Assembly: GCA_016432445.1 (NCBI GenBank)
Contig: CP066689.1
Span: forward strand, 630,001 to 662,000
DNA: 32,000 bases
Direction: 5' to 3'
DNA from: Candidatus Saccharimonadota bacterium
Lineage (GTDB): Bacteria; Patescibacteriota; Microgenomatia; UBA1406; GWC2-37-13
The position numbers and the translations under genes were made by a program. Position 1 is the first letter of the stretch; each line of letters opens with the position of its first letter. The notes beneath the pieces were generated by a model. That model was not told the origin of the DNA. It did not search any database and saw nothing but the letters and a program-made list of their open reading frames with translations. Below are positions 1,222-2,735 of the stretch, piece after piece.

Positions 1222-1245
1222 ATCAGGTACCGTCTGGTACCTGAT
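1222..1245 (+). repeat. GGTACC-GTCT-GGTACC hairpin copy 1 (inside 23S)
   Basis: ATCAGGTACC GTCT GGTACCTGAT, a perfect 10-bp stem. Confidence 0.8.
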
Positions 1246-1298
1246 GGGAACCCGGGGAACTGAAACATCTAAGTACCCGGAGGAATATAAATCATATG

Positions 1299-1344
1299 AT
1301 CCTTCGATTTCACTCAGGATCATCCTGAGCGAGGTCGAACGGAT
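1299..1344 (+). other. ~45-nt helical insertion in 23S domain I relative to E. coli
   Basis: It lies between the conserved AAATCA and GAGATTCC-CAGTAGCGGCGAGCGAA strings. ATCCTTCGA pairs with TCGAACGGAT, enclosing CTCAGGA-TCA-TCCTGAG. Confidence 0.6.
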
Positions 1345-1387
1345 GAGATTCCGTCAGTAGCGGCGAGCGAACGCGGAACAGTCTAAA

Positions 1388-1493
1388 TCCCTCTTCGCTT
1401 TTTACTGCGTAAAAAGCTACGATGGGACAGGCCCATTTAATATGAGACTGTGTCCCTACCGGAGATTACTACGAAGTAGTAAGCGGAGGGGGA
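1388..1493 (+). repeat. structured ~105-nt 23S insertion element, copy A
   Basis: Basal stem is TCCCTCTTCGC...GCGGAGGGGGA. Internal hairpins are TTTTTAC-TGC-GTAAAAA, GGGACA...TGTCCC and TTACTAC-GAA-GTAGTAA. It shares end sequences and architecture with 2360-2470. Confidence 0.65.
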
Positions 1494-1777
1494 GGTTGCG
1501 GGAGCTGCAATGTGTCCTTGATTTTTATAGGAGAATGTTCTGGAAAGAACAGTCATAGAAGGTGACAACCCTGTATTCGAAATAAAAATCGGGACTAGCG
1601 GATTTCCCAAGTACCACGAGGCACGGCAAACCTTGTGGGAAGCTGGGTCGGTCACGATCCAAGACTAAACATTCAAACTGACCGATAGTGAACAAGTACC
1701 GTGAGGGAAAGGTGAAAAGTCCCCCAGTGCGGGGAGTGAAATAGAACCTGAATCCATTGGCTAACAAACAGACAAAG

Positions 1778-1799
1778 CCAGGTACCGTCTGGTACCTGG
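1778..1799 (+). repeat. GGTACC-GTCT-GGTACC hairpin copy 2 (inside 23S, helix-25 region)
   Basis: CCAGGTACC GTCT GGTACCTGG, a perfect 9-bp stem. Confidence 0.8.
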
Positions 1800-2359
1800 T
1801 ACTGTCGTGCCTATTGAAGAATGAGTCAGCGAGTCCCCGCTTTGTGTTTGCTTAATCCATTATTTTGGAGGAGGCATAGGGAAACCAAGTGCGAAAAGCG
1901 CGTTTATACATAGCGGGGGACCCGAAACTGGGTGAGCTAACCATGAGCAGGATGAACCCCGATGAAAGTCGGGGGAAGGTCCGAACCCGTTGCAGGTGAA
2001 ATTGCATGGGACGACTTGTGGTTAGGGGTAATATGCCTATCGAACCCAGAGATAGCTGGTTCTCCCCGAAATATATTTAGGTATAGCCTCTATGATTAAA
2101 ATCCTGGGGTAGAGCTACTGGATGGTCTTGGTGCGCGTAAGCGTATCAAAATCAACCAAACTCCGAATACAGGATGTACACATAGGGAGTCAGATCTGCC
2201 CGGATAATCGGGTGTGGTCGAAAGGGAAACAACCCGGACTCTCGTCTAAGGTTCCTAAATGATTATTAAGTGGCAAAGGCCGTTTCATTTCCAATACAGC
2301 AGGGAGGTTGGCTCAGAAGCAGCCATCCTTTAAAGAGTGCGTAACAGCTCACCTGAATA

Positions 2360-2470
2360 TCCCCCTTCGCTCCTTGCTTCGCAACGGAGCTACGGTAGGG
2401 ACAAGTTCCCTTAACTTGTAAGGGATGCTTGCTCCTCCGAAGCTCTTTACGGAGTAAAGAGCGGAGGGGA
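2360..2470 (+). repeat. structured ~110-nt 23S insertion element, copy B (helix-45 region)
   Basis: It is inserted between AGCTCACCTGAATA and GATGGAGCGCCGAAAATG, where E. coli has AGCTCACTGGTCGAGTCGGCCTGCGCGGAAGATG. Basal stem is CCCCCTTCGC...GCGGAGGGG. A shared GCTACGGTAGGGACA block is present, plus a terminal hairpin GCTCTTTAC-GGA-GTAAAGAGC. Confidence 0.65.
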
Positions 2471-2713
2471 GGAGATGGAGCGCCGAAAATGATTCGGATC
2501 TAAATAATCTACCGAAGACAGAGATACTTGCCCTCTGGGCAAGTGTGGTAGGGGAGCGTTCTTACTGCAATGAAGCTCAACTGTAAGGTTGGGTGAAGTG
2601 GTAGGAAGTGAGAATGCTGACATAAGTAGTGACTCTTCCGATGAAAACTCGGAATGCCGAAAGTTCAAGGTTTCCTCAGCAACGTCAATCGACTGAGGGT
2701 TAGTCGGATCTAA

Positions 2714-2735
2714 GGGAGTACCGTCTGGTACCCCC
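2714..2735 (+). repeat. GGTACC-GTCT-GGTACC hairpin copy 3 (inside 23S)
   Basis: GGGAGTACC GTCT GGTACCCCC, with one A-C mismatch in the stem. Confidence 0.75.

What the first reader, a model, noticed from the sequence alone, without database searches (positions are those of the whole stretch)
1222..2735. One identical GGTACC-GUCU-GGTACC hairpin caps three unrelated 23S rRNA helices
The three copies are ATCAGGTACC-GTCT-GGTACCTGAT (1222-1245), CCAGGTACC-GTCT-GGTACCTGG (1778-1799) and GGGAGTACC-GTCT-GGTACCCCC (2714-2735). I aligned them by hand to the E. coli 23S as I remember it. They occupy three different peripheral hairpins: the one just 5' of GGGGAACUGAAACAUC, the helix-25 region after GAACCUGAA, and the hairpin after CCUAAGG 5' of GUUAAUAUUC. 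In other bacteria those hairpins have unrelated sequences. An identical 16-nt core (a KpnI-site palindrome with a GUCU loop) three times in one rRNA is not expected from vertical descent. Possible explanations are a small palindromic element that colonises hairpin tips, gene conversion between helices, or recruitment of a common binding or processing site, for example for an RNase III-like enzyme or a lineage-specific protein.
Basis: seen in the sequence. Interest (0 to 1): 0.65.

Follow-up and report, generated by a model that had tools for sequence, protein, structure and literature searches.

The report
Tiny mobile hairpin capping rRNA helices
Three surface helices of this bacterium's 23S rRNA end in the same short hairpin, most likely because it is a 22-base palindromic DNA element that gets inserted at many genomic sites, including in frame inside protein genes, so it appears that even ribosomal RNA can be colonised by a miniature selfish element.

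Summary
GTACCGTCTGGTACC occurs exactly three times in the 23S rRNA gene, at the tips of H10, H25 and H52 (0.03 matches expected by chance). It has a compensatory stem change and is flanked by a 5-nt direct repeat (CTTCG), which makes a 27-nt in-frame insertion.

The same 16-22-mer recurs in many Microgenomates and a few Saccharibacteria. It sits at at least 10 different 23S helix tips in different lineages. It also occurs in a 23S-5S spacer, straight after a tRNA CCA end, beside cobalamin riboswitches, and in frame in unrelated protein genes.

Seven non-rRNA loci, with five different sequences, show 5-nt C-N-N-N-G direct repeats around a 22-nt unit. In rsmH, related genes differ by a clean 27-nt presence/absence at one site.

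Best reading: a REP/MITE/RPE-like miniature palindromic insertion element. rRNA helix tips tolerate it and retain it best: 5 copies in 266 kb of 23S against 0 in 513 kb of flanking DNA. How it moves is unknown. A role as a protein-binding or RNA-processing hairpin is not excluded. I found no description of it in the literature.

The parts
1222..1245 (+). Copy 1: ATCAGGTACC-GTCT-GGTACCTGAT. It forms the whole of 23S helix H10.
   Evidence: Exact match. Rfam model 144-177. Folds at -16.7 kcal/mol. The same cap is at H10 in L061, L073 and L071; L074 has loop TTTT.
1778..1799 (+). Copy 2: CCAGGTACC-GTCT-GGTACCTGG, the tip of 23S helix H25.
   Evidence: The same cap is at H25 in L061, L054 and L216. 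L027 has the compensatory variant GATACC..GGTATC. L074 has the loop flipped to AGAC. L071 and L073 have a ~170-nt AT-rich insertion instead.
2714..2735 (+). Copy 3: GGGAGTACC-GTCT-GGTACCCCC, the tip of the H52 hairpin. It has one A.C mismatch.
   Evidence: Relatives keep GTACC..GGTAC with other loops: AAAT, TTAT, GTACT. Curtissbacteria and E. coli have GAGGCC-GAAA-GGCGTAG.
27514..27545 (+). Copy 4, in the mtaB gene: CTTCG | CCAGGTACT-GTCT-AGTACCTGG (27519-27540) | CTTCG. This is a 27-nt in-frame insertion (27519-27545) that encodes QVLSSTWLR.
   Evidence: There are two compensatory stem changes. The 5-nt direct repeat is exact. Homologues carry D-K-[FY]-L-x-S-G-R once, whereas here it reads DHY-LR-[QVLSSTW-LR]-SGR.
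1068..4990 (+). Host 23S rRNA gene. The 5' part runs to about 3925, followed by an intron with a LAGLIDADG ORF (4083-4592) and a 3' part at about 4700-4990.
   Evidence: Rfam RF02541, 1990.9 bits. Sequence of the 3' part. Pfam LAGLIDADG_1.
27082..28431 (+). Host gene of copy 4: an MtaB/MiaB-family radical-SAM methylthiotransferase.
   Evidence: Homologues carry PF00919 and PF04055, and sources name them MtaB.

Best explanation
The hairpin is a copy of a miniature palindromic DNA insertion element of about 22 nt: NNN-GGTACC-GTCT-GGTACC-N'N'N', most often CCA...TGG. The element is dispersed through genomes of Microgenomates and some other CPR bacteria.

Shown: it is inserted at the DNA level. 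Five nucleotides of target (C-N-N-N-G) are duplicated on either side, giving a 27-nt, stop-free, in-frame addition. The insertion can be lost cleanly again. The loop can flip between GTCT and AGAC at the same site.

Inferred: copies that land in, or replace, the tips of solvent-exposed rRNA helices are tolerated because they are just a stable 9-10-bp stem with a tetraloop. There they lose their flanking repeats and are kept by the need for a paired helix, so rRNA becomes the place where they accumulate and persist. Copies in genes and spacers decay or are deleted. On this reading the three caps in this window are old residents of that kind, and the mtaB copy is the form that still carries the marks of insertion.

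The enzyme or repair process that moves the unit is unknown. My guess is mobilisation in trans by a transposase, or capture at a 5-nt staggered break, with loss by replication slippage between the 5-nt repeats across the palindrome.
For: (1) 5-nt direct repeats lie exactly 3 bp outside the GGTACC core in 8 of about 45 hairpin-forming copies: CTTCG (window mtaB, L048, L094, L097), CGTAG (L016), CGCGG (L105), CAGGG (L035) and CTCTG (L037). An offset control gave none. About 0.04 are expected at 1/1024 per copy.

(2) rsmH has empty and filled alleles. The empty allele is tgCCCTGGtgtt (L244). Filled alleles are tgCCCTG+22-mer+CCCTGgt (L243, L242, L035, L245, L246). L243 and L244 are 86-97% identical at the nucleotide level apart from the 27-nt indel. 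Ten filled alleles are scattered among 23 empty ones on the protein tree.

(3) mtaB in the window shows the same architecture.

(4) The unit sits on different helices in different lineages: H10, H15, H25, an extra branch on the 3' strand of H42, H45, H52, the H54-59 region, the H62/63 region, H68 and H78. It is also in a 23S-5S spacer. One Roizmanbacteria 23S carries at least 6 copies.

(5) It also lies straight after a tRNA-Ser CCA end, next to two cobalamin riboswitch aptamers, and in intergenic DNA.

(6) In a sample not chosen for the motif, only 2 of 120 H25 tips have it. All 5 exact GGTACC-N4-GGTACC hairpins lie in 266 kb of 23S, with none in 513 kb of flanking DNA.

(7) About 23-26 of the 120 16-mer hits in the GTDB species genomes are CPR. 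Those hits have 3-5 extra paired bases, whereas most non-CPR hits have none.

(8) The 22-mer has no stop codon in any of its six frames (read directly from the sequence; frames seen).
Against: The rRNA copies have no flanking repeats. They replace the previous tip and are not simply added to it, so their origin by the same insertion process is inferred, not shown.

Copy number per genome looks low: 4 in this 32-kb window, all but one in rRNA. This is unlike classical REP or MITE families.

The exact 16-20-mer is conserved between lineages whose 23S is only about 80% identical and across several candidate phyla. That would also fit selection on a functional RNA or DNA site.

The GTCT loop is in the sense orientation about three times more often than AGAC. 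By my own tally the ratio is roughly 19 to 6, and the events are not all independent.

No transposase or RAYT-like gene is in the window, and none was linked to the element. A unit whose two 9-bp arms are only 4 bp apart is hard to reconcile with ordinary two-end DDE transposition.
Confidence: 0.68

Rival explanations
1. The hairpin is a functional RNA module. On this view it is a recognition site for a lineage-specific RNA-binding protein or endoribonuclease (rRNA fragmentation, tRNA or mRNA 3'-end processing, or an extra multi-copy ribosomal protein), recruited independently to many transcripts.
For: The exact sequence, including the loop, is conserved across lineages with ~80% 23S identity and across candidate phyla. 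There is a bias towards the GUCU loop in the transcript sense (my tally). Positions fall in transcribed, structured RNAs: rRNA tips, directly after a tRNA CCA, beside riboswitch aptamers and in the 23S-5S spacer. Compensatory stem changes occur. The base pair next to the core is usually A-U, which gives AGGU/ACCU. From memory this resembles the reported Mini-III cleavage consensus; I treat it as a lead only.
Against: 113 of 120 CPR-type 23S genes have no such hairpin, and those that do carry it on different helices. Loops at orthologous tips drift (GUCU, UUUU, AAAU, UUAU, GUACU, AGAC), which argues against loop-specific recognition. The unit occurs inside ORFs in at least three reading frames and both orientations, with target-site-like duplications. 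Stems of 9-10 bp are short for RNase III-family enzymes (general knowledge).
Confidence: 0.17
2. Concerted evolution within the rRNA gene. Short-patch gene conversion or template switching between hairpin tips, or convergent selection for one especially stable cap after helix truncation, produced the rRNA copies. The copies elsewhere would then be secondary or unrelated.
For: rRNA copies replace the previous tip without flanking repeats and without much length change. CPR 23S has truncated peripheral helices such as H9, H63 and H78 (PMC9297842), and the cap sits on such stumps, for example H78 in L027 and the H62/63 region in L186. Loop flips at one site show that template switching does act on these palindromes (L074 against L216 at H25; L035 against L247 in rsmH).
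Against: It does not explain the identical 22-mer with 5-nt duplications in mtaB, rsmH, membrane-protein genes and a spacer in different phyla. There is no flanking homology between helices to guide conversion. H25 tips in 118 other lineages use many different, equally stable caps.
Confidence: 0.12
3. Chance similarity, or an assembly or sequencing artefact such as a collapsed palindrome or a chimeric rRNA contig.
For: Palindromes can cause assembly errors. The window comes from a single assembly, and read coverage could not be checked.
Against: 0.03 matches are expected against 4 observed. The same caps at the same helices appear in independent assemblies from different projects and technologies (L061, L169, L073, L071, L054, L216).
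Confidence: 0.02

Closest known systems
REP elements (repetitive extragenic palindromes, including the GTAG- and CGTC-tagged families; mobilised by RAYT/IS200-IS605-type Y1 transposases)
   Same: A 20-40-nt stem-loop unit with an 8-13-bp stem and a 4-5-nt loop. Dispersed, mostly transcribed, and occasionally intragenic. Stem variants keep their pairing (PMC3733652).
   Different: There is no GTAG or CGTC tag at an end; CGTC occurs only across the arm-loop boundary. A 5-nt flanking duplication is present, whereas REPs have none. Copy number appears low. It resides inside rRNA helices. No RAYT was found nearby. The host group is CPR.
MITEs (miniature inverted-repeat transposable elements)
   Same: Terminal inverted repeats plus a short target-site duplication. 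Non-autonomous. Filled and empty sites occur among relatives.
   Different: At 22 nt it is far below the usual 50-500 nt, with arms only 4 nt apart. No parent IS with matching ends was identified.
Rickettsia palindromic elements (RPEs)
   Same: Palindromic units inserted in frame into conserved protein genes, adding a peptide loop. From memory, they are also reported in RNA genes.
   Different: RPEs are about 100-150 bp and restricted to Rickettsia. They are not known as recurrent caps of rRNA helices.
23S rRNA intervening sequences (IVS) in helices 9, 25 and 45
   Same: They replace the tip of the same class of peripheral helices. Their distribution among relatives and operons is patchy, and they are regarded as selfish insertions (e.g. 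PMC4990558, abstract as listed).
   Different: IVSs are 50-700-nt extended stems excised by RNase III, which gives a fragmented 23S. This unit is a 22-nt hairpin and probably stays in the mature rRNA. The window also has IVS-like long insertions at 1395-1490 and 2355-2480.
Organellar hairpin elements (yeast mitochondrial GC clusters, Allomyces double-hairpin elements, Volvox palindromic repeats)
   Same: Short mobile palindromes found in intergenic DNA, in variable regions of rRNA genes and in frame in protein genes (from memory; Volvox from the abstract of PMC2670323 listed).
   Different: Organelle genomes with different sequences. Not bacterial.

Membership tests
REP / RAYT system | Short (20-40 nt) imperfect palindrome forming a stem-loop | tested here: met
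   22-24-nt hairpin with a 9-10-bp stem and a 4-nt loop.
REP / RAYT system | Conserved GTAG (or CGTC) tetranucleotide at one end of the stem | tested here: not met
   Ends are CCA/TGG, ACA/TGT, GAG/CTC and others. No GTAG is present, and CGTC occurs only inside the unit at the arm-loop boundary (definition from PMC3733652).
REP / RAYT system | Tens to thousands of extragenic copies per genome, often as head-to-head dimers | tested here: inconclusive
   4 copies in the 32-kb window. One Roizmanbacteria MAG has at least 6 in its 23S (L061; 3 exact, 3 variant) and 1 more beside a riboswitch (L045). None lies in 513 kb of DNA flanking CPR 23S genes. No complete genome could be scanned.
REP / RAYT system | Associated RAYT (Y1 transposase) gene flanked by REPs | tested here: inconclusive
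   None among the window ORFs scanned with Pfam. The region between the two inverted L009 copies holds tRNA genes plus two ORFs that were read but not searched against protein families, so it was not assessed. Whole genomes were not searched.
MITE | Terminal inverted repeats | tested here: met
   9-bp arms, CCAGGTACC / GGTACCTGG.
MITE | Target-site duplication of fixed length | tested here: met
   5-nt direct repeats at 8 copies with 5 different sequences. The empty rsmH site carries one copy of the 5-mer.
MITE | A related autonomous IS with the same ends supplies the transposase | not tested
MITE | Size of about 50-500 bp with internal sequence | tested here: not met
   The unit is 22 nt with a 4-nt interior.
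23S rRNA intervening sequence (IVS) | Located at the tip of helix 9/10, 25 or 45, replacing the loop | tested here: met
   H10 and H25 in the window; H45 in L061, L206 and L074. It is also on many other helices.
23S rRNA intervening sequence (IVS) | Long extended stem excised by RNase III, giving a fragmented 23S | not testable with these tools
   No RNA data are available. A 9-10-bp stem is shorter than typical RNase III substrates (inference).
Rickettsia palindromic elements (RPE) | In-frame insertion into conserved protein genes without disrupting them | tested here: met
   mtaB in the window; rsmH in 10 homologues; two membrane-protein ORFs, all reading through.
Rickettsia palindromic elements (RPE) | Sequence family of 100-150 bp specific to Rickettsia | tested here: not met
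   The unit is 22 nt and the hosts are CPR.

The most novel reading that the evidence does not exclude
A 22-nt palindrome is the smallest known bacterial insertion unit that makes target-site duplications. It preferentially enters, or is converted into, loops of folded nucleic acids. CPR bacteria have domesticated it as a standard cap for their truncated rRNA helices, and occasionally as coding sequence (in one rsmH allele it replaces a native strand). A dedicated hairpin-recognising enzyme would account both for its mobility and for its sequence conservation across phyla.
Probability: 0.25. Interest if true: 0.85.

Novelty: new variant of a known kind. Interest (0 to 1): 0.68.

Why it matters
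If this reading is right, peripheral rRNA helices in the reduced ribosomes of CPR bacteria are shaped partly by a selfish mini-palindrome, and not only by drift and truncation. That bears on how rRNA expansion and reduction happen.

It would also define an unusually small insertion unit (22 nt plus a 5-nt duplication) that adds nine stop-free codons to essential genes such as rsmH and mtaB. Such a unit is a source of protein loop variation and a handy marker for strain-level population genetics in uncultured lineages.

Practically, identical 20-mers inside one rRNA gene can mislead rRNA alignment, probe or primer design and assembly. They could also be mistaken for conserved functional motifs.

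Tried and rejected
1. DNA uptake sequence. The core CCGTCTG resembles the Neisseria DUS (from memory), but only 4 copies occur in 32 kb and 3 of them are in rRNA. Rejected.

2. Restriction-modification signature of KpnI sites. GGTACC occurs 6 times in the window, 5 of them in the hairpins, and there is no clear avoidance or excess elsewhere. Not informative.

3. Phage origin. There were 0 hits for the 18-mer in 2.9 M viral contigs.

4. Known RNA family. Rfam gathering-threshold scans of the window and 19 loci report only rRNA, tRNA, tmRNA and cobalamin riboswitches, and nothing for the hairpin itself.

5. Terminator function. Some copies are followed by T-runs, but many are not, and some lie in 5' leaders or ORFs.

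6. Transposase nearby. None is in the window.

7. Literature. No paper in the library contains the 16-mer, the 20-mer or the encoded peptides.

8. Two apparent CPR hits (L110, L025) turned out to be superoxide-dismutase codons for VP(S/D)GT. They are a coding coincidence, not the element.

9. I first called two sites H45 and H46. The Rfam alignment corrected them to an extra branch on the 3' strand of H42 and to H45.

10. I looked for close relatives (over 90% 23S identity) to date the rRNA caps. None was among the fetched loci; the best was about 81%.
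Full report
**1. The observation**

The window carries a bacterial 23S rRNA gene. It starts at 1068, is interrupted near 3925 by an intron with a LAGLIDADG ORF (4083-4592), and resumes at about 4700-4990. GTACCGTCTGGTACC occurs exactly at 1227, 1782 and 2718. Shuffled sequence gives 0.03 matches even when 2 mismatches are allowed.

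Alignment to the Rfam LSU model puts the three hairpins at these tips:
- H10: the hairpin is the whole helix.
- H25.
- The CCUAAGG...GUUAAUAUUC hairpin (H52).

Copies 1 and 2 share 20 nt. Copy 3 begins AGTACC and has one A.C mismatch. All three fold as simple stem-loops.

**2. A fourth copy, with marks of insertion**

The same search found CCAGGTACT-GTCT-AGTACCTGG at 27519-27540, with a C>T and G>A pair of changes that keeps the stem. It lies inside the mtaB (MiaB-family methylthiotransferase) ORF, 27082-28431.

The 22-mer is flanked on both sides by CTTCG (27514-27518 and 27541-27545). The added DNA is therefore 27 nt, nine codons, in frame. The protein reads DHY-LR-QVLSSTW-LR-SGR, whereas 120 homologues have a single [DNS]K[FY][LI]xSxR (DKYLR or DKFLR in six of them). 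Removing the nine residues improves the global alignment score in 4 of 5 comparisons.

**3. The unit is widespread in CPR bacteria and sits on many different helices**

About 23-26 of those rows are CPR, mostly Microgenomates (Roizman-, Curtiss-, Levy-, Woese-, Gottesman- and Blackburnbacteria) plus a few Saccharibacteria. That is far more than their share of the database, which I estimate at only a few percent of the bases (not measured). In the CPR hits the stem continues for 3-5 further base pairs, most often gCCA...TGGc. In most other hits it does not, as expected for chance matches.

Alignment of the 23S genes recovered shows the cap on different helices in different lineages:

| Site | Lineages and variants |
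|---|---|
| H10 | window, L061, L073, L071; L074 has loop UUUU |
| H15 | L206, L074, L133 |
| H25 | window, L061, L054, L216; L027 has the compensatory GAUACC..GGUAUC; L074 has the loop flipped to AGAC; L071 and L073 have a ~170-nt AT-rich insertion instead |
| Extra branch on the 3' strand of H42 | L061; the window has a 125-nt insertion there |
| H45 | L061 (loop GUUU), L206, L074 |
| H52 | window; relatives keep GUACC..GGUAC with loops AAAU, UUAU, GUACU |
| H54-59 region | L061 |
| H62/63 region | L186 (loop AUAU) |
| H68 | L061 |
| H78 | L027 |

One Roizmanbacteria 23S (L061) has at least six such caps. Helix numbers other than those read from the Rfam structure lines rest on my memory of the E. 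coli map.

**4. An unbiased sample**

I used the single metagenome scan on the conserved flanks of H25, not on the motif. This returned 120 CPR-type 23S loci. Their H25 tips are almost all different, with GNRA and AUUUAU loops common, and only 2 of 120 carry the motif. Seven of the 120 loci have a motif-like hairpin anywhere.

All five exact GGTACC-N4-GGTACC hairpins lie within 266 kb of 23S sequence. None lies in 513 kb of flanking DNA. The cap is therefore rare, patchy and concentrated in rRNA. The three tips do not behave as a co-varying set.

**5. Copies outside rRNA**

The unit directly follows the CCA end of a tRNA-Ser gene, and it follows a protein-coding ORF (L009). It abuts the 3' end of a Cobalamin riboswitch aptamer (L045) and an AdoCbl-II aptamer (L077, opposite loop orientation). 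It also lies in a 23S-5S spacer (L037). Others are intergenic or inside ORFs. Two apparent ORF hits (L110, L025) are superoxide dismutase codons for VP(S/D)GT and are coincidences.

**6. Evidence that it is inserted as DNA**

I looked for direct repeats around all hairpin-forming copies. This gave 5-nt repeats exactly three base pairs outside the GGTACC core in eight copies, with none in an offset control:

| 5-nt repeat | Where |
|---|---|
| CTTCG | window mtaB; L048, L094, L097 |
| CGTAG | L016 |
| CGCGG | L105 |
| CAGGG | L035 |
| CTCTG | L037 |

All fit C-N-N-N-G, which also explains the frequent G...C pair that extends the stem.

In three ORFs the unit is read in the same frame, as Q-V-P/L-S-G/S-T-W (window, L016, L105). 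In rsmH it is read on the other strand as R-Y-Q-T-V-P.

The rsmH case is the clearest:
- Among 120 homologues, ten carry CP[GD]RYQTVP[AV]PGV or decayed versions, and 23 have the empty site AC-PG-V.
- At the DNA level the empty allele is tgCCCTGGtgtt (L244).
- The filled alleles are tgCCCTG + GCAGGTACCAGACGGTACCTGC + CCCTGgc (L242), with variants in L243, L035, L245 and L246.
- L243 and L244 are 86-97% identical in nucleotide sequence apart from the 27-nt indel.
- Filled alleles are scattered among empty ones on the protein tree, so there were several gains or precise losses.

In L247 the same site carries the 22-mer with the loop flipped to GTCT. The second CCCTG is absent and nine native codons are missing, so the element now encodes RYRLVPV where relatives have VFKLVxx. 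That allele shows how an insertion followed by a neighbouring deletion can look like a wholesale replacement, which is what the rRNA tips look like.

**7. Interpretation**

The best-supported account is a miniature palindromic insertion element. The DNA-level insertion with a 5-nt duplication, the clean filled and empty alleles, the loop flips and the decay of copies in genes are shown.

Three steps are inferred. First, the rRNA caps derive from the same process. Second, they persist because a perfect 9-10-bp hairpin is harmless on a solvent-exposed helix and is then held by the need for pairing. Third, copies flanked by 5-nt repeats are lost by slippage across the palindrome.

The mobilising activity is unknown. 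No transposase is in the window, no viral contig carries the 18-mer, and two 9-bp arms only 4 bp apart do not fit ordinary two-end transposition.

Three facts keep a functional reading alive at about 0.17. The sequence is strongly conserved across lineages whose 23S is only about 80% identical. There is a roughly 3:1 excess of the GUCU orientation in the transcript sense. Copy number is low.

**8. Comparison with known systems**

In size and shape the unit resembles REPs, which have 8-13-bp stems and 4-5-nt loops and are sometimes intragenic (PMC3733652). It differs from REPs in lacking the GTAG or CGTC end tag and in having flanking duplications. It has the inverted repeats and duplication of a MITE but is several-fold smaller than any MITE I know of.

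Its in-frame insertions recall Rickettsia RPEs. Its rRNA positions recall IVSs of helices 9, 25 and 45, and the hairpin elements of fungal and algal organelles.

CPR rRNA insertions and helix losses have been catalogued (PMC11270868, PMC9297842). Term searches of those two papers for 'hairpin' and 'palindrom' returned nothing, and no paper in the library contains the sequence or its peptides. I therefore rate it a new variant of a known kind.

**9. Caveats**

- The genome and metagenome scans were capped at 120 rows, so the counts are samples.
- No complete genome could be scanned.
- Organism labels of MAGs are as deposited. The 'Pseudomonadales' and 'Gammaproteobacteria' MAGs, which carry the unit inside a longer repeat, may be mislabelled.
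- No RNA data exist to test cleavage.

Noticed in passing
window 1395-1490 and 2355-2480: The two large insertions in the 23S, in H15 and in the 3' strand of H42, are homologous to each other (77% mean column identity). They share the base AUCCC(U/C)CUUCGCU...AGCGGAGGGG and fold into long hairpins (-44 and -67 kcal/mol). This is a second family of stem-loop insertions that occupies two different helices of the same rRNA. blastn found no copy in any fetched locus.
   Followed up: partly
window 3925-4700: An intron-like insertion in the 23S near the GAGACAGUU segment carries a LAGLIDADG homing-endonuclease ORF (4083-4592). Rfam did not report a group I intron for it at gathering threshold.
   Followed up: no
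window 1300-1350: A further ~50-nt insertion relative to the bacterial LSU model lies just after the GGAGGAAUAUAAAUCA segment.
   Followed up: no
window 971-998, 20191-20218, 23406-23433: A 28-nt motif, TTGAC-N-TAGACT...TAT/TTTGT, recurs three times at 79-82% identity. It looks like a sigma-70-type promoter. One copy lies about 70 nt upstream of the 23S and another lies next to the tRNA-Arg/Lys pair.
   Followed up: no
window 780-857 and 1068: The 23S is preceded only by tRNA-Ala(TGC) and a protein gene. No 16S is upstream and no 5S was called downstream, so the rRNA genes appear unlinked. The gene order 23S-ruvC-iPGM-pfkB-holA is shared with Roizmanbacteria contigs.
   Followed up: partly
L247 576-1487 (rsmH, P0148): The 22-mer sits at the usual rsmH site with a flipped loop, but the nine native codons after it are gone. 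The element now encodes RYRLVPV in place of the native VFKLVxx strand. This looks like exaptation of the element as coding sequence.
   Followed up: partly
L009 220-266 and 2670-2725: In one Microgenomates contig the hairpin is followed by a second conserved hairpin (GGCAGGCATAGAATTGTGCCTGCC). The 47-nt pair occurs twice, in inverted orientation, once after a tRNA-Ser and once after a protein gene.
   Followed up: no
L045 6089-6264; L077 2221-2335: Two copies abut cobalamin riboswitch aptamers, where an expression-platform hairpin would be expected.
   Followed up: no
L016, L048, L094 (MAG labelled Pseudomonadales) and L097 (labelled Gammaproteobacteria): Here the unit is embedded in a longer repeat..cgCTTCG[22-mer]CTTCGctc.agaatga... 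These MAGs are AT-rich (38-44% GC), and the L016 ORF that carries the unit looks from its sequence like a membrane mannosyltransferase (not searched against protein families). The taxonomic labels may be wrong, or the element may cross phyla.
   Followed up: no
L049, L051, L080, L093 (Thermoanaerobaculia MAG DASQPA01): Four contigs end about 33 nt after the same 16-mer, inside an identical ~100-nt repeat with no stem extension. This is probably an unrelated multi-copy repeat that breaks the assembly.
   Followed up: no
L122-L241, H25 tips: H25 tips in CPR 23S genes fall into a few recurrent loop types (GCAA/GUAA, and AUUUAU as in CGAUUUAUCG). This hints that other cap modules may also recur.
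   Followed up: no
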